From IMG/VR virus record IMGVR_UViG_3300022752_000035, positions 1-64,000 of that record: a stretch of DNA of 64,000 nt. One strand, given 5' to 3'. The DNA is from a virus. Below, one piece after another: positions 4,011 through 9,189 of the stretch (positions are counted from its first letter, which is position 1; each line of letters begins with the position of its first letter). The translations under genes and the position numbers were made by a program. The notes beneath the pieces were generated by a model. It worked only from the letters and a program-made list of their open reading frames with translations, ran no database searches and was not told the DNA's origin.

Positions 4011-6272
4011 ATGAATAAAAATATTTTAATTAAAAAGCGCTGTGGAAATTCTGAAAAATTTGATATAGAAAAAATTCATAAAGTAATAAACTGGGCGATA
4101 AAAGACATCTCTGGCGTAAGCTTAACTGATATAGAAATCAATGCTAAAATTAATTTGCATGAAGGTATATCATCAAAAGAAATACATAAACTACTAATAG
4201 AAAGTGCGGCTAATCTTATATCTATATCTAGTCCAAACTATCAATATGTAGCAAGTAGATTATTAAATTATCAATTAAGAAAAGAAGTATGGAAAGGCAA
4301 ACATGCTCCAAGATTAATAGAATTTATACAAAACTCTATAAAAAATAAAGTTTATGATCCAATTATTTTAGAAAAATATACTGAAGATGAGATTAATAAA
4401 ATTGGAGAATTTATAGATCATGATAGAGATTATAGCTTTACATATGCTGGAATAAAACAATTATGTGATAAATATTTAATTAAAAATAGAACTAATGGTA
4501 ATATATTTGAAACACCACAATTTGCTTATGTATTAATAGCTGCTTATGCATTTATTAACTATCCAGTTGAAACAAGGTTATCATATGTAAGAAAATTCTA
4601 TGATGCTATAAGTAAGCATAAAATTAATTTACCAACACCAGTAATGGCAGGAGTTAGAACTTCTAGCAGAAACTTTGCTAGTTGTTGCCTTATTGGAGTA
4701 GATGATACTCGTGAAAGTATTACTGCTAGTGCTACTGCTGTTAGTATGGCTACTGCTAATAGATGCGGTATTGGAATAGATGTTTCTAAAATTCGTGCAT
4801 TAGGTTCGCCTATTAAAAATGGTGAAGTAGTTCATACAGGGTTAATTCCATTCTTAAAGATTTATGAGAGTAGCGTTAAAGCATGGCAACAAAATGGATT
4901 AAGAGGCGGTAGTGCTACTTGTAATATTCAATGGTGGCACTATGAGATTGAAGATATTGTTGTATTAAAAAATAATGCTGGAACAGATGACAACCGAGTT
5001 CGCAAACTTGATTATACTGTTGGCATGAGTAAACTATTCTATGATAGAGTTTTAAAAGATGAAGATATCACTTTGTTTAATAACGCAGAAGTTCCAGAAT
5101 TATTTGAAGCATGGGGAACAAAAGATTTTGATAAAGTCTACAAAGAATGTGAAACTAAAAAATTAAAAATTAAAAAGAAAATATCTGCTAGGAAACTCTT
5201 TTCTCTTATAATTAAAGAGCGAGTTGAAACTGGTAGAATTTATATTCTTAATGTAGATCATGCTAATAATCATGGCGCATGGCTAGATAAAGTAACAATG
5301 AGTAATCTTTGCACAGAAGTCATTCATCCTACTATTCCATTAAATGATTATCACGATAAAGAAGGCGAAATTGGTATGTGTATTCTTTCGGCAGTAAATA
5401 TGTTAGAAATTAAAAACTGGCAAGATCTTGAAAAGACTTGCGATCTTATCGTAAGATTTCTTGATGAAATCATTGAACTTCAAGATTACTTTAATATTGC
5501 TGCTGAAAATTTTGCTAAAAAGCGCAGAAGTCTTGGAGTTGGAATAACTAACCTTGCTGCATTCTTTGCTAAAAATGAATTAAAATATAATTCAGACAAG
5601 TGCCTTCCAGTATTAGACGAATGGATGGAGCATTTTCAATATTATCTTTTAAAATCAAGTTTAGAATTAGCTAAAGAAAAAGGCAAGTGCGAAAAGTTTG
5701 ACAGAACAAAGTACTCAAAAGGAATTCTTCCTATTGATACCTATAAAGATAAAGTAGATGAGATTTGCAAAAGAAAATTATCACTTGATTGGGAAAAATT
5801 AAGAAAAGATATCAAAGAGCATGGATTAAGACATTCAACGCTGTCTTCTTGCATGCCTTGTGAAAGTAGTTCTGTAATTCAATCTTCTACTAATGGTGTT
5901 GAGCCAATTCGTAGTCTAATTACTTATAAAATGAGTAAAATGGGCAAACTACCAGTATTAGTTCCAGGAGTAGGAAAGTATGAAGGCAATTACGAATTAG
6001 CTTATGATTTTAAAGATAATTCTGGTTTACTAAAAGTTAATGCAGTTATTCAAAAATATATTGACATGGCCATATCAACTAATGTATACTATAACTATTC
6101 TCATTATGAAAATAATATATTACCAGATGCAAAAGTAATGAAAGAAATAATGCTTGCATATTCTTTAGGACTAATCAGTATGTATTATAATAACACAGAT
6201 GACGGAGACAAAGAGCAATTGATGAATCAAAAAGAAGACAAAGACTGCTCTTCTGGTGCGTGTAAATTGTAA
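4011..6272 (+). CDS. nrdA: Ribonucleotide reductase class I alpha subunit with N-terminal ATP cone
   Basis: ATP cone (IKKRCGNSEKFDIEKI), PTPVMAG, ASCCL, SNLCTE catalytic motif, C-terminal CSSGACKL. Confidence 0.97.
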   Translation: MNKNILIKKRCGNSEKFDIEKIHKVINWAIKDISGVSLTDIEINAKINLHEGISSKEIHKLLIESAANLISISSPNYQYVASRLLNYQLRKEVWKGKHAPRLIEFIQNSIKNKVYDPIILEKYTEDEINKIGEFIDHDRDYSFTYAGIKQLCDKYLIKNRTNGNIFETPQFAYVLIAAYAFINYPVETRLSYVRKFYDAISKHKINLPTPVMAGVRTSSRNFASCCLIGVDDTRESITASATAVSMATANRCGIGIDVSKIRALGSPIKNGEVVHTGLIPFLKIYESSVKAWQQNGLRGGSATCNIQWWHYEIEDIVVLKNNAGTDDNRVRKLDYTVGMSKLFYDRVLKDEDITLFNNAEVPELFEAWGTKDFDKVYKECETKKLKIKKKISARKLFSLIIKERVETGRIYILNVDHANNHGAWLDKVTMSNLCTEVIHPTIPLNDYHDKEGEIGMCILSAVNMLEIKNWQDLEKTCDLIVRFLDEIIELQDYFNIAAENFAKKRRSLGVGITNLAAFFAKNELKYNSDKCLPVLDEWMEHFQYYLLKSSLELAKEKGKCEKFDRTKYSKGILPIDTYKDKVDEICKRKLSLDWEKLRKDIKEHGLRHSTLSSCMPCESSSVIQSSTNGVEPIRSLITYKMSKMGKLPVLVPGVGKYEGNYELAYDFKDNSGLLKVNAVIQKYIDMAISTNVYYNYSHYENNILPDAKVMKEIMLAYSLGLISMYYNNTDDGDKEQLMNQKEDKDCSSGACKL

Positions 6273-6275
6273 TCT

Positions 6276-7340
6276 ATGAAAAGCGTTTTAAATTTAAAAA
6301 ATATAGATTATACTAAACAACCGCTTTTCTTTGGCGAAGATTTAAATCTTCAAAGATATGATAAGTTTAAATATCCTATCTTTTTTGAATTATTTAAAAA
6401 ACAAGAAGAATTTTTCTGGTGGCCACATGAAATAGCTTTAAATAAAGATAGAAGCGATTATAAAGATCTTGCTGGTCAAGAAAGATTTGTATTTGATACT
6501 AATCTTAAATTTCAAACTCTTGGAGATAGTATGCTTTCAAGAAGTATACATTCATTAAAAGATTATGTAAGTAATCCAGAGTTAGAGATATGCATGAATA
6601 CTTGGCAAAGATTTGAAGGTATTCATAGTTATTCTTACTCATATTTATTGAATAATGTTCATCCAGATGCAAGCAAGTTTTTTGATAGTATTATGGAGGA
6701 CAAAGAGATTACCTCAAGAGCAGAATTAATTCGCAATAATTTTGATAAAATTCTTGGAGATGATGATAAAAAAGATCTTAAACAAAAGATTTTTGATTGT
6801 ATCCTATCTGTCAATGTCATGGAAGGTCTTGTATTCTATGTAAGTTTTGCTTGTTCTTTTTATTTTGGATATAGAGGTAAAATGGAAGGTAATGCTAAGA
6901 TTATAAAATTTATTCAAAGAGATGAAGCATTACATTTTGCTACAACTCAAAATTTAATTAAGATATTAAAAGAAGAAGATAAAGAAGGATTTACTTCTAT
7001 CGTAAAAAAAAGTGAAGATAAAATATATGCATTTTATGAACAAGCTGCCAAGAATGAAATAGAGTGGGCAGAGTATATCTTTAAGAATGGATCATTACTT
7101 GGATTAAATGCTGAGGTATTAGGAGGATACTCTAAATGGTTGTGCGATGCAAGATTACGCAGTCTTGGGTATAAAAAAATATTTAATCAAAAAGATAATC
7201 CTATATCTGGCTGGCTTGATAGTTATCTTGATAGTAGTAAAGTACAAGTTGCTCCTCAAGAAACAGAGATTTCTACCTATAAAATAGGAGCAAGAAAAAC
7301 TGATATCTCTGATGATGATTTTGGTGATTTAAAGCTATAA
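6276..7340 (+). CDS. nrdB: Ribonucleotide reductase class I beta subunit
   Basis: FWWPHEI, EGIHSYSY, EGLVFYVSF, RDEALH, QVAPQETEISTY motifs; directly follows nrdA. Confidence 0.97.
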   Translation: MKSVLNLKNIDYTKQPLFFGEDLNLQRYDKFKYPIFFELFKKQEEFFWWPHEIALNKDRSDYKDLAGQERFVFDTNLKFQTLGDSMLSRSIHSLKDYVSNPELEICMNTWQRFEGIHSYSYSYLLNNVHPDASKFFDSIMEDKEITSRAELIRNNFDKILGDDDKKDLKQKIFDCILSVNVMEGLVFYVSFACSFYFGYRGKMEGNAKIIKFIQRDEALHFATTQNLIKILKEEDKEGFTSIVKKSEDKIYAFYEQAAKNEIEWAEYIFKNGSLLGLNAEVLGGYSKWLCDARLRSLGYKKIFNQKDNPISGWLDSYLDSSKVQVAPQETEISTYKIGARKTDISDDDFGDLKL

Positions 7341-7369: not shown

Positions 7370-7702
7370 GTGAATTTAGACATAAATATCTTATTTAATA
7401 TAGTTTTGGGAGCCCTCTCTTTTTTGGGAGGATGGCTATTTACTAGAGTATTTTCATTATTCGATAAACAAGAAAAATTAATGAAAGAATTAAATGACAA
7501 AACATTTAGCGATTTTATTACTCTAAGAAAAGAATTAGAAGCAGAGAGCAGAAGAAACGAACAAAATATAGCAGACTTAGCTTTAAAAGTAAGTACAACT
7601 TATGCTACAAAAGACACAGTAGAGAATGCTATGGAAAAGATTGAAAATAAACTTGATAGAAATTTTGATTTGATTCAGCAGTATTTTTTCGATAAAGATT
7701 AA
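7370..7702 (+). CDS. Small protein with N-terminal TM helix and coiled coil (possibly holin-like)
   Basis: Hydrophobic ILFNIVLGALSFLGGWLF, then charged helical region; GTGTAA 8 nt upstream. Confidence 0.55.
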   Translation: MNLDINILFNIVLGALSFLGGWLFTRVFSLFDKQEKLMKELNDKTFSDFITLRKELEAESRRNEQNIADLALKVSTTYATKDTVENAMEKIENKLDRNFDLIQQYFFDKD

Positions 7703-7721: not shown

Positions 7722-8243
7722 GTGATAGTAACTGATAAAGATATATCTTATCTTTCTAAAAAACTTAATCTATCTGAAGAGAAGGTCTTTTGTTTAATCG
7801 AAGATCCAGAAGCAGTAGAAAAAATATTAATAAAAGTGGCTCAAGAAGATTTGCATGGAGATAAAGTAGTTGATATTAGTTTTCCGCTATATACATGTTT
7901 ATGTATTTTAAAATATAGCGAAGATTTAAAGTATGATTTTAATGAAAAAGAATACATAAGTGATACTATAAGTAAAAAATATCCTGTTATAAGTAAAGAT
8001 AAGCTTGAAGAAGAATTTGTTTTAAATATAAAAAAGAATGAAGATACTGCTCAATATTTTACTGTATTCTTGGGATTTTTTCATAAAAAATTGGATAGAC
8101 CAAGAAGGTGCTATCCAGATCAAAAGATTTATTATACTATAGCTAAAGAAGGATATCAGAATTCAAATCGAGAGAATATAGCTTATCATTTAAATAATTG
8201 GATTAAAGTCTTAAGAAGAATCAATACTGAAATTTGGTTCTAA
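7722..8243 (+). CDS. Hypothetical helical protein
   Basis: 173 aa ORF; TTGTAA variant motif 8 nt upstream. Confidence 0.65.
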   Translation: MIVTDKDISYLSKKLNLSEEKVFCLIEDPEAVEKILIKVAQEDLHGDKVVDISFPLYTCLCILKYSEDLKYDFNEKEYISDTISKKYPVISKDKLEEEFVLNIKKNEDTAQYFTVFLGFFHKKLDRPRRCYPDQKIYYTIAKEGYQNSNRENIAYHLNNWIKVLRRINTEIWF

Positions 8244-8280
8244 ATCTTATCTTAATTATTATACTTTTCTTTAATATCCC

Positions 8281-8582
8281 ATAGAAGACTTTCCCTCATA
8301 TATTTTTTATTGAGGTTATATCTAGTATATAGTCCCTACTTTTCTTTTAACTCCCATTTTCCTCTTGCGAGGAAACAGACTACGGCATTTATAGAGGCGA
8401 GGTGGCTTACCTCATTTACATTGCCGTCCCTTACAGCCACACATTAATTCCCGAGCCATCTTATGCACAAGGGAAGTTTTCATAGTCGCAAGTCTTCACA
8501 GCGTTGCTATCTCTTGGGACTATATACTAAACAGTTTTCTATAAAACTATCAAAATTGCCTATAATTAGAAGGCTATGTCAA
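8281..8582 (-). ncRNA. Candidate novel structured ncRNA of about 300 nt
   Basis: ORF-free, locally GC-richer. 14-bp perfect inverted repeat 8323-8336/8516-8529 encloses several hairpins, including UUUCCUC-GCAA-GAGGAAA on the minus strand. Minus-strand promoter at 8617-8589. Confidence 0.55.
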
Positions 8583-8588
8583 TAGAGT

Positions 8589-8617
8589 ATAATACTATTT
8601 TTTTTGAAATTTGTCAA
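8589..8617 (-). promoter_or_regulatory. sigma70-type promoter facing the non-coding region
   Basis: TTGACA (8617-8612), 17 nt, TATTAT (8594-8589). Confidence 0.75.
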
Positions 8618-8640
8618 ATTTTTATTTAAATAAAAAAATA

Positions 8641-8676
8641 TTGCTATTTTTTTAAAAATGAAATATACTTGTGTAA
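8641..8676 (+). promoter_or_regulatory. tmRNA promoters: sigma70-type plus GTGTAA motif
   Basis: TTGCTA-N17-TATACT (8641-8669), then GTGTAA (8671-8676). Confidence 0.65.
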
Positions 8677-8700
8677 GTGATTTTATAGTTCTTTCTCATT

Positions 8701-9117
8701 GGGCCCGTACTGGTATCGATTTTAAAAATTGGAATTAGAATGCAAGTAGAGTTAAAGTGGACTCTTTAAACAACTTTAAAATACTTAACTGCCAAATCAG
8801 CTAAGTTAAAAGGTAGTTTCTCTTTGAGAGTTTCTCACAAGAAGGACTCCCTAATCGCAGCCTAAAATCTGCGACCTGTTATCTACGACACATCTACTAG
8901 AATAATGGGTATTTAGATGTATATCTTTAAATCCTTTTTATTTAATTTTTAAAGATATTATTTAGGGTGAATGTTACTAAGGTAATATTTATAATTAAAT
9001 GAATAGTTATAGCTCGATTGCTTATTCGACACTATAGCGAAATAACGGAATAAGCTAAACTTGTAGTATTCTAGTTTAACTTTTTAAAAGACAGAGGTTC
9101 AACTCCTCTCGGGTCCA
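8701..9117 (+). ncRNA. ssrA: tmRNA (transfer-messenger RNA)
   Basis: 5' GGGCCCG pairs with 3' CGGGUCC-A, giving the G3-U alanine determinant. GGTATCGA D-loop region, T-arm AGAGG-TTCAACT-CCTCT, resume context TAACT-GCC. Tag ORF 8791-8865 AKSAKLKGSFSLRVSHKKDSLIAA*. CCA not encoded. Confidence 0.95.
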
Positions 9118-9189
9118 AGCTATATCTCATAAAGGATATATATTATAATAAATAAATTAAATTTTTAATTTTGTGTAATTAAATAACTA

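What the first reader, a model, noticed from the sequence alone, without database searches (positions are those of the whole stretch)
8281..8617. Unannotated structured RNA with its own promoter, back-to-back with tmRNA
Seen: about 450 nt without an ORF in an otherwise gene-dense genome. A 14-bp perfect inverted repeat (TAGTATATAGTCCC 8323-8336 / GGGACTATATACTA 8516-8529) sits inside a 9/10 outer stem (8281-8290 / 8533-8542). Nested stems: 8358-8375 (GCAA GNRA loop on the minus strand), 8382-8387/8422-8427, 8399-8413, 8448-8452/8471-8475, 8378-8381/8484-8487. A TTGACA-N17-TATTAT promoter points into it. It does not match the tRNA, RNase P or SRP signatures I can recognise. Inference: a multibranched phage ncRNA, possibly a divergent 6S-like RNA-polymerase decoy, a translation-related RNA or an origin primer. 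The wobble pattern of the outer stem slightly favours the plus strand, so strand is not certain.
Basis: partly seen in the sequence, partly recalled or inferred. Interest (0 to 1): 0.75.

Follow-up and report, generated by a model that had tools for sequence, protein, structure and literature searches.

The report
New knotted RNA gene, lake phages
The gene-free gap next to this lake phage's tmRNA is a separate gene, read from the opposite strand, for a tightly knotted RNA of about 318 bases that makes no protein, matches no catalogued RNA family, and shows two identical exposed purine-rich stretches; its job is unknown.

Summary
The flagged stretch is real. It is a stand-alone gene for a structured non-coding RNA on the MINUS strand, about window 8579 to 8262 (~318 nt). 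A consensus sigma-70 promoter (TTGACA-17-TATTAT, 8617-8589) drives it, 121 nt from and divergent to the phage tmRNA.

- **Distribution:** I found over 100 distinct homologues in three diverged clades of uncultured freshwater phages.
- **Fold:** twelve helices, including two pseudoknots. 98-99% of cells form standard pairs and 44 of 66 pair positions show compensatory double changes.
- **Strand:** 173 G-U cells would be A-C mismatches on the plus strand.
- **Database matches:** Rfam 15 gives nothing, even at E <= 10. Two pattern scans found nothing in one genome per prokaryote species.
four are confirmed. The 'outer stem' and two small stems are not conserved.
- **Rejected identities:** not 6S, RNase P, SRP, a retron RNA or a TnpB guide RNA.
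- **Best functional clue:** two single-stranded tracts (N-GGA...Y-AAAGAAAAGU). Their two variable letters switch together at least 6 times on the tree and never disagree.

My best guess (about 40%) is that the knotted core is a scaffold presenting two identical handles to one external partner. This scan reported the same family on at least seven other windows. The function remains unknown.

The parts
8612..8617 (-). -35 hexamer TTGACA of the RNA's promoter
   Evidence: The hexamer is invariant in the 45 aligned homologues and kept in clade C.
8589..8594 (-). -10 hexamer TATTAT, 17-nt spacer
   Evidence: A -10-like TAnnAT hexamer is kept at the same distance in all clades.
8262..8579 (-). The RNA gene (~318 nt). 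The 5' end is inferred from the promoter and the start of conservation (ACAUAG). The 3' end is inferred from the end of conservation (…AAAGAAAAGU). Neither end is mapped.
   Evidence: No intrinsic terminator was found.
8558..8574 (-). Hairpin Ha (8571-8574 pairs with 8558-8561)
   Evidence: All cells paired; 3 of 4 pairs show double changes.
8533..8548 (-). Hairpin Hb (8543-8548 pairs with 8533-8538)
   Evidence: The sequence differs in each clade but the pairing is kept.
8516..8529 (-). P1 5' strand (closing helix of the core; 14 bp here, 9 bp in clade B, 13 in clade C)
8323..8336 (-). P1 3' strand
8482..8510 (-). P2 (8507-8510/8482-8485) and P2a (8500-8503/8487-8490). The P2a loop 8491-8497 is the 5' strand of pseudoknot PK1.
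8284..8290 (-). PK1 3' strand (AGUCUUC), pairing with 8491-8497 (GAAGACU)
   Evidence: (I21). 99.4% of cells paired; 4 of 7 pairs show double changes across clades.
8448..8475 (-). P3 hairpin (8471-8475/8448-8452). Its loop UGUNCAUnnnAUGGCU is conserved in clades A and B.
8435..8440 (-). P4 (pseudoknot PK2) 5' strand GUGGCU
8402..8407 (-). P4 (PK2) 3' strand AGCCAC, lying in the loop of P6
   Evidence: 97.9% of cells paired; 2 pairs show double changes.
8382..8427 (-). P5 (8422-8427/8382-8387) enclosing P6 (8409-8413/8394-8398)
8358..8375 (-). P7 hairpin. It has a GCAA loop here and longer stems with other loops in clades B and C.
   Evidence: Thirteen stem variants in clade B pair almost without exception.
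8338..8355 (-). Purine-rich tract 1: GGGAGUUAAAAGAAAAGU, unpaired
   Evidence: (D2).
8294..8315 (-). P8 hairpin (8311-8315/8294-8298)
8263..8280 (-). Purine-rich tract 2: GGGAUAUUAAAGAAAAGU, unpaired, at the 3' end
   Evidence: (D2).
8701..9118 (+). Phage tmRNA. It is a neighbour transcribed divergently, not part of the RNA.

Best explanation
**Shown**
- Window 8579-8262 (minus strand) is a stand-alone gene for a ~318-nt non-coding RNA of an uncatalogued family. The family is carried by one group of uncultured freshwater phages.
- A consensus sigma-70 promoter drives it, so host RNA polymerase would probably make it early in infection.
- It folds into a compact core: closing helix P1, helices P2-P7 and an internal pseudoknot (P4). 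Two 5' hairpins and a 3' extension (P8) flank the core.
- The end of the 3' extension reaches back into the P2a loop to form a second pseudoknot (PK1).
- The fold leaves two near-identical purine-rich tracts single-stranded. One is internal and one is at the 3' end.

**Inferred (about 40%)**
- The RNA acts in trans.
- The knotted core is a rigid, nuclease-resistant scaffold.
- Its job is to present the two identical tracts to two copies, or two sites, of one external partner.
- The partner would be a pyrimidine-rich RNA or a sequence-specific RNA-binding protein, from the host or the phage.
- The RNA would therefore work as a decoy, sponge or adaptor during infection.

That it is a real structured RNA gene on the minus strand I hold at about 95%.
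For: - **Homologues:** more than 100 distinct sequences in three clades.
- **Pairing, hand-anchored table:** 3520 of 3579 helix cells are canonical, and 44 of 66 pair positions show compensatory double changes.
- **Pairing, tool count on 36 pairs:** 98.9% of cells are paired against 88.2% in shuffles (0 of 500 reach it) and 30-57% when the partner is slid. Eighteen pairs show double changes.
- **Strand:** 173 G-U cells would be mismatches on the other strand.
- **Promoter:** it is conserved in all clades.
- **Composition:** G+C is 0.47 in a 0.25 background.
- **Expression hint:** metatranscriptome contigs from two studies lie inside the RNA (181-nt contig = 8337-8517, 97% identical; contig 8371-8559). 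The flanking coding DNA is nearly uncovered.
- **Tracts:** the core AAAGAAAAGU is invariant in 108 unique sequences. The letter before GGA and the Y before AAAG are always the same in both tracts.
- **Concerted change:** on a tree built with the tracts masked, Y switches at least 4 times and N at least 2 times in each tract, with no discordant tip.
- **No internal partner:** no Watson-Crick partner for Y was found inside the RNA.
- **Independent unit:** the gene moved as a unit. It is convergent at the end of nrdA-nrdB-p110 beside the tmRNA in clades A and B, and just upstream of nrdA on the same strand in clade C.
Against: - No partner has been identified.
- The exact 10-nt complement of the tract core occurs nowhere else in the 64-kb window.
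- No tmRNA column tracks Y.
- Concerted change of the tracts could also come from like-with-like contacts, from competition of two near-duplicate modules for one internal site, or from gene conversion.
- Both RNA ends are inferred, and no terminator was found.
- The RNA-seq evidence is contigs only, at low depth (4-8). It is unstranded and DNA carry-over is not excluded.
- The pair positions compared across clades were anchored by hand.
Confidence: 0.4

Rival explanations
1. The RNA forms an RNA-only homo-oligomer, as ROOL, GOLLD and OLE do. PK1 or other loops would pair between chains. The two purine tracts would make like-with-like contacts (A-A type), which would force them to keep identical letters.
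For: - The tracts stay identical through at least 6 concerted switches, and no complementary partner was found inside the RNA.
- OLE dimers use a conserved symmetric stack of four A-A pairs.
- ROOL and GOLLD are phage RNAs near tRNA genes that assemble into cages without protein (PMC12286853).
- This RNA likewise sits beside tmRNA and tRNA genes.
Against: - At ~318 nt it is much smaller than ROOL or GOLLD.
- The tracts differ constantly in their middle (GU versus UAU, and A4 versus A3), which does not fit a continuous like-with-like helix.
- The PK1 geometry (4-bp stem, 1-nt linker, 7-8 bp) is ordinary for a pseudoknot within one chain.
- Nothing here tests oligomeric state.
Confidence: 0.15
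2. The RNA is a two-state switch. The 3'-terminal module (PK1 strand plus tract 2) and the internal module (segment after P5 plus tract 1) are near-duplicates that compete for the same docking sites. A signal or partner would shift the balance.
For: - The segment after P5 (8377-8381) resembles the PK1 3' strand in every clade.
- It can pair with the same P2a loop: 235 of 240 cells are canonical, with 2 positions of double change.
- Each competing strand is followed by the same tract.
Against: - The internal pairing shrinks to 4 bp in clade C and does not follow the loop's variable 5' part, whereas the terminal strand does.
- The same segment can instead pair with GGCU of the P3 loop in clades A and B.
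- Only one or two independent events support the internal pairing.
Confidence: 0.12
3. The RNA is a cis-acting leader or riboswitch of the ribonucleotide-reductase operon.
For: In clade C the RNA lies 115-145 nt upstream of nrdA on the same strand. In most loci of all clades it flanks nrdA-nrdB-p110.
Against: - In clades A and B (the window included) it is on the opposite strand, at the 3' end of the operon.
- In some genomes (L183, L221) no nrd gene lies within 4 kb.
- It keeps its own promoter everywhere.
- No riboswitch model matches.
Confidence: 0.05
4. The RNA is a divergent member of a known housekeeping or regulatory RNA family: a 6S-like RNA-polymerase decoy, RNase P RNA or SRP RNA.
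For: - It has a strong promoter, stable-RNA-like G+C, and a position beside the tmRNA.
- A superficial GAGG-AAAG-pseudoknot motif after a hairpin recalls the P3/J3-4/P4 region of RNase P (my reading).
Against: - No Rfam model matches at E <= 10 in four versions of the RNA.
- The fold is branched and knotted, not a 6S rod.
- The partner strand of the GAGG-AAAG motif lies in a hairpin loop, unlike RNase P P4.
- SRP domain IV motifs are absent.
Confidence: 0.03
5. It is a DNA-level element or an RNA primer of a replication origin.
For: It is a long inverted repeat in an AT-rich gap between divergent promoters.
Against: - Pairing is kept through G-U pairs that are mismatches in DNA and on the other strand.
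- Pseudoknots covary.
- There is one copy per genome.
- Complete related phages lack it.
Confidence: 0.03

Closest known systems
ROOL (RF03087) and GOLLD (RF01998), large ornate RNAs of phages and prophages (Kretsch et al. 2025, PMC12286853)
   Same: All are stand-alone, heavily pseudoknotted phage RNAs with no known protein partner and no known function. All are typically encoded beside tRNA or tmRNA genes and show conserved unpaired A-rich elements.
   Different: There is no sequence or model match. This RNA is roughly half the size of ROOL and much shorter than GOLLD (>800 nt). The helix layout is different, and its oligomeric state is unknown.
Phage T4 species 1 and 2 RNAs (rnaC, rnaD), from my own knowledge
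   Same: They are stable small RNAs of unknown function encoded among the tRNA genes of a T4-like phage.
   Different: The T4 RNAs are about 120-140 nt and are processed from the tRNA precursor. This RNA has its own promoter, is more than twice as long and is knotted. No comparison was run here.
6S RNA
   Same: Both are abundant-type stable RNAs from a strong sigma-70 promoter that act in trans as a decoy. For this RNA the decoy role is hypothetical.
   Different: 6S is a rod with a central bubble that mimics open promoter DNA. This RNA is a branched double pseudoknot, and no 6S model matches.
Protein- or RNA-sponge RNAs with repeated single-stranded motifs (CsrB/RsmZ for CsrA; Hfq-titrating RNAs), from my own knowledge
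   Same: Both have repeated exposed motifs, here containing GGA and A-R-N-like triplets, displayed on a structured body.
   Different: This RNA has only two motifs, of 17-18 nt and conserved letter for letter. It has an elaborate knotted core instead of simple hairpins. No csrA gene is in the phage, and the host is unknown.
Anonymous candidate structured RNAs predicted from IMG/VR (Fremin et al. 2023, PMC10690425)
   Same: The source data are the same. This RNA may be among their 10,006 unnamed candidates.
   Different: I could not check this because no supplementary files are held. The text describes no such RNA beside a tmRNA or nrd genes.

Membership tests
Any Rfam 15 family (4227 models) | Match to a covariance model | tested here: not met
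   No hit overlaps the RNA at gathering score, nor at E <= 10 for the window version or for L098, L183 and L228.
6S RNA | Rod of about 180 nt with closing stem, large central bubble and terminal stem | tested here: not met
   Covariation supports a multi-branch core with two pseudoknots.
RNase P RNA | Conserved regions CR-I to CR-V, and a P4 helix formed between two junction strands | tested here: not met
   No RNase P model matches. The PK1 partner strand lies in a hairpin loop, and the rest of the layout does not map.
Retron msr-msd RNA | Flanking inverted repeats plus an adjacent reverse transcriptase | tested here: not met
   The inverted repeat is present. No RVT_1 gene is in G000, in the complete G001 or in G002.
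TnpB/IscB guide RNAs (omega RNA, HEARO) | Adjacent TnpB or IscB nuclease gene | tested here: not met
   PF07282 has no match in the three genomes. The neighbours are nrd genes, small ORFs and the tmRNA.
Type III toxin-antitoxin RNA (ToxI-like) | Tandem repeats of about 34-45 nt next to a ToxN-type nuclease | tested here: inconclusive
   There are only two 17-18-nt tracts, 75 nt apart. No ToxN match was found, but the control search matched nowhere either.
Y RNA / YrlA with Ro (Rsr) | Ro60 (TROVE) gene in the genome | tested here: not met
   No TROVE match.
ROOL / GOLLD | Match to RF03087 or RF01998; homo-oligomeric cage | tested here: not met
   No model match. Oligomeric state cannot be tested with these tools.
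tmRNA partner (functional link to trans-translation) | Obligate co-occurrence or covariation with the phage tmRNA | tested here: not met
   It is adjacent in most clade A and B loci but 6-10 kb away or not seen in clade C. G003 (complete) and G005 have a tmRNA but no such RNA. No tmRNA column tracks the tract's Y.

The most novel reading that the evidence does not exclude
The RNA is built from two near-duplicate 3' modules, each a loop-binding strand followed by an identical purine tract, around one knotted core. It would work as a bivalent or switching device. Either it assembles with itself through like-with-like purine contacts, as OLE, ROOL and GOLLD assemble. Or it hands one partner from the internal tract to the terminal tract by strand exchange. 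Either way it would be a new type of phage RNA machine that works without a dedicated protein.
Probability: 0.2. Interest if true: 0.85.

Novelty: categorically new. Interest (0 to 1): 0.6.

Why it matters
Large structured RNAs with strong covariation and no assigned function are rare. In the past they have led to new biochemistry such as ribozymes, riboswitches and RNA cages.

This one has several practical advantages:
- It is compact (~318 nt) and has more than 100 natural variants.
- It has two well-supported pseudoknots and a clear experimental handle: two exposed tracts that evolution keeps identical.
- It is carried by abundant lake phages that also bring their own tmRNA, so it may reveal how such phages manipulate host RNA metabolism or translation.

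It is ready to be written up as a new RNA family and is well suited to probing, pull-down and cryo-EM.

Caveats: this scan has already reported the same family from at least seven other windows, and the RNA may be among the unnamed IMG/VR candidates of PMC10690425.

Tried and rejected
- **Wasted scan:** an exact scan of viral contigs for the 14-nt repeat arm gave mostly chance hits.
- **Cultured phages:** blastn of the region against 50,697 phage records found no match.
- **Prokaryote genomes:** one genome per species was scanned. A specific two-tract pattern gave 0 hits. A looser P2 pattern gave 120 hits, and none survived nhmmer screening.
- **Known partner genes:** searches for RT, SmpB, TROVE, TnpB, ToxN and CsrA in three phage genomes were all negative. 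The ToxN search had no positive control.
- **tmRNA as pairing target:** RNAduplex sites were not conserved. The best site in clade A lies inside a tmRNA helix and changes in L094 without any change in the tract. No tmRNA column tracks Y.
- **Target in the window:** there is no other copy or exact 10-nt complement of the tract core in 64 kb.
- **Divergent copy beside other tmRNAs:** none was found next to the tmRNA of G003, G005 or G002.
- **Single-column covariation scan for further tertiary pairs:** swamped by clade structure and uninformative.
- **Small ORF reading:** the AUGGCU in the P3 loop is not conserved in clade C, and the frames differ between clades.
- **Reading frame from tract 1 to tract 2:** open in clade B but closed after 9 codons in the window.
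- **RNA-seq depth:** contig depths cannot rank this RNA against the tmRNA, and parts without cover mean nothing.
- **Literature:** motif and topic searches found no description. The supplement of PMC10690425 is not held.

Full report
**1. What is in the window**

- The window comes from an IMG/VR virus record of 95,984 bp, estimated 63% complete.
- Positions 8244-8700 hold no ORF longer than 45 aa. They lie between a 173-aa ORF (7722-8243, +) and a complete one-piece tmRNA (8701-9118, +).
- Upstream are class I ribonucleotide reductase genes nrdA (4011-6272) and nrdB (6276-7340) and a 110-aa ORF. Downstream is a virion protein gene.
- G+C rises to 0.47 inside the gap, against about 0.25 around it.
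- Both strands fold better than any of 200 shuffles.
- The best promoter-like site of the region (11 of 12 matches) points leftwards: TTGACA 8617-8612, 17 nt, TATTAT 8594-8589.
- Rfam finds only the tmRNA at gathering score and nothing relevant at E <= 10.

**2. Homologues**

- A blastn search of cultured phage records found nothing.
- Synteny worked. Loci fetched with the neighbouring virion protein included several with a tmRNA, and each of these had a G+C-rich island at the same place.
- Aligning these islands showed a conserved element with many paired changes.
- Two motif scans of viral contigs, screened with nhmmer, gave 70 loci.
- A metagenome scan with a pattern that does not include the purine tracts added 66 loci.
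- Together these give 108 unique sequences in three clades:
  - A: the window's clade, 80-93% identical to the window.
  - B: the majority, about 60-65% identical.
  - C: about 60% identical, with nhmmer scores about 100 bits lower.
- Public DNA runs that hold the stretch are lake and freshwater metagenomes.
- Two pattern scans of one genome per prokaryote species found no homologue.

**3. Strand, ends and promoter**

- The -35 TTGACA is invariant and a -10-like hexamer sits 17 nt away in all clades.
- Conservation begins with ACAUAG about 7-10 nt after the -10 (window 8579). It stops right after AAAGAAAAGU (window 8263). The flanks diverge freely.
- Of 3228 helix cells compared across clades, 3178 are standard pairs on the minus-strand RNA. 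Of these, 173 are G-U pairs that would be A-C on the plus strand, where only 3021 cells would pair.
- The GNRA loop (GCAA) also reads correctly only on the minus strand.
- No intrinsic terminator follows the gene, so the 3' end is inferred from conservation only.

**4. Structure**

I aligned each clade separately. I defined helices by coordinates on one reference per clade and anchored them across clades. RNA position p corresponds to window coordinate 8582 - p.

| Helix | Window coordinates |
|---|---|
| Ha | 8571-8574 / 8558-8561 |
| Hb | 8543-8548 / 8533-8538 |
| P1 | 8516-8529 / 8323-8336 |
| P2 | 8507-8510 / 8482-8485 |
| P2a | 8500-8503 / 8487-8490 |
| PK1 (P2a loop with the strand after P8) | 8491-8497 / 8284-8290 |
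| P3 | 8471-8475 / 8448-8452 |
| P4 (pseudoknot into the P6 loop) | 8435-8440 / 8402-8407 |
| P5 | 8422-8427 / 8382-8387 |
| P6 | 8409-8413 / 8394-8398 |
| P7 | 8369-8375 / 8358-8364 |
| P8 | 8311-8315 / 8294-8298 |

- Over 49 unique sequences, 3520 of 3579 cells are canonical.
- Of 66 pair positions comparable across clades, 44 show compensatory double changes, 2 change on one side only and 20 are invariant.
- PK1 reads GAAGACU/AGUCUUC in clade A and AAGGGCU/AGCCCUU in clade B. In clade C the seven-position strands are UCAGGCU/AGCCUGU, CAAGGCU/AGCCUUC and AUAGGCU/AGCCUAU, with the outermost position unpaired in four of five members.
- As an independent count, I ran the pair-counting tool on a plain MAFFT alignment of 48 sequences. 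I used only the 36 pairs that MAFFT places in the same columns in all clades (Ha, P2, P2a, PK1, P4, P5, P6).
  - 98.9% of cells are paired, against 88.2% in shuffles (0 of 500 reach it) and 30-57% when the partner is slid by 1-3 columns.
  - 18 pairs have double changes.
  - The covariation score is 0.354 against 0.155.
- The tool warns that related sequences can beat the shuffles without structure. The slid controls and the many distinct pair types within clade B (for example 13 variants of P7) argue against that here.
- The segment after P5 (8377-8381) can pair either with the P2a loop or with GGCU in the P3 loop. The data do not decide between them.

**5.

- Confirmed: P1, P7, P5 and P3.
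- The 'outer stem' (8281-8290/8533-8542) exists only in clade A and competes with Hb and PK1.
- The hairpin 8399-8413 is a clade A alternative to P6 plus P4.
- The pairing 8378-8381/8484-8487 is not conserved.

**6. The two tracts**

- Tract 1 (8355-8338) and tract 2 (8280-8263) are unpaired in the model.
- They read N-GGA-GU-Y-AAAAGAAAAGU and N-GGA-UAU-Y-AAAGAAAAGU.
- In 108 unique sequences the core AAAGAAAAGU never varies. N is U, G or A, Y is C (84) or U (24), and both tracts always carry the same N and the same Y.
- On a maximum-likelihood tree built with the tract columns masked, parsimony needs at least 4 switches of Y and 2 of N in each tract, with no discordant tip.
- No column inside the RNA pairs with Y in a Watson-Crick manner.
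- This lead came from earlier notes of this scan. I tested it on my own data set.
- The constant difference in the middle of the tracts argues against simple gene conversion.
- The readings that remain are: one co-evolving external partner, like-with-like contacts, or competition of the two modules for one site.

**7. Context**

- In clades A and B the gene is divergent from the tmRNA, with a gap of 108-308 nt.
- 43 loci carry a 69-72-aa ORF in that gap. The window lacks it and has a gap of 121 nt.
- In clades A and B the gene is also convergent with nrdA-nrdB-p110(-p173).
- In clade C the gene lies 115-145 nt upstream of nrdA on the same strand, with its own promoter. The tmRNA is 6-10 kb away or not seen.
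- In some genomes (L183 in the complete G001; L221) no nrd gene is within 4 kb.
- Five related phage records lack the RNA by BLAST, including the complete G003. Of these five, G003 and G005 carry a tmRNA over the family cut-off; G002, which has the RNA, carries one as well.
- So the RNA is an optional, mobile gene of this phage group and is not required by the tmRNA.
- The phage genomes encode no reverse transcriptase, SmpB, Ro, TnpB or CsrA.

**8. Expression**

- Six metatranscriptome runs hold small parts of the stretch.
- I laid four of them on the window. One has a 181-nt contig that lies wholly inside the core (8337-8517, 5 differences).
- Another has contigs at 8183-8386 and 8371-8559.
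- Coding DNA on both sides is almost uncovered, while tmRNA-like contigs are deep.
- These are unstranded contigs at depth 4-8 and DNA carry-over is possible. This is a weak hint only.

**9. What it is not, and what it is closest to**

- No Rfam model matches four versions of the RNA.
- The fold rules out a 6S rod.
- A GAGG-AAAG-pseudoknot motif recalls RNase P, but its partner strand lies in a hairpin loop and nothing else maps.
- A retron or other RT-dependent RNA is excluded because there is no RT.
- The closest in kind are ROOL and GOLLD. These are phage RNAs near tRNA genes with unknown function that form RNA-only cages (PMC12286853). The T4 stable RNAs rnaC and rnaD (my own knowledge) are also close in kind. 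Membership in either is not supported.
- Papers on related marine phages discuss the phage tmRNA but no such RNA (PMC9004378).
- The large IMG/VR screen for structured RNAs may contain it anonymously (PMC10690425).

**10. Verdict**

This is a real, separately transcribed, double-pseudoknotted ncRNA gene of a new family. The function is unknown. My preferred reading, a scaffold that shows two identical handles to one partner, is an inference at about 40%. This scan has already reported the same family on other DNA.

Noticed in passing
window 8701-9118 (+): The phage tmRNA encodes a 24-residue, lysine-rich tag ending in LIAA. Its own promoter-like site lies at 8641-8669. The phage genomes searched have no smpB, so the tmRNA must rely on host SmpB.
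   Followed up: partly
L098:1963-2181 (+) and 42 other loci; absent from the window: A conserved 69-72-aa ORF sits between the RNA's promoter and the tmRNA in most relatives. The window, L195 and L196 lack it. It has no Pfam match.
   Followed up: partly
window 7370-7702 (+): The 110-aa ORF after nrdB has an N-terminal membrane helix and a coiled-coil-like remainder. It is present in 3 of 3 genomes with the RNA and in 0 of 5 related records without it. This may only reflect relatedness.
   Followed up: partly
L268:7500-8080 and other clade C loci: In clade C the RNA gene lies just upstream of nrdA on the same strand, although the nrd proteins are 88-96% identical to the window's. The RNA gene has therefore moved or been swapped between close relatives.
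   Followed up: yes
L433:1650-2050 (G003:C1:77150-77550): A G+C-rich stretch lies about 600 nt upstream of the tmRNA of a complete related phage that lacks this RNA. It could be another structured RNA in the same neighbourhood.
   Followed up: no
L157:2270-2625 (G007): A more distant relative carries a permuted (two-piece type) tmRNA instead of the one-piece form. This points to different host lineages within the phage group.
   Followed up: no
window 8589-8659: A 22-nt direct repeat (8589-8610 and 8638-8659, 82% identical) overlaps the two divergent promoters of the RNA and the tmRNA. It may be a shared control element.
   Followed up: no
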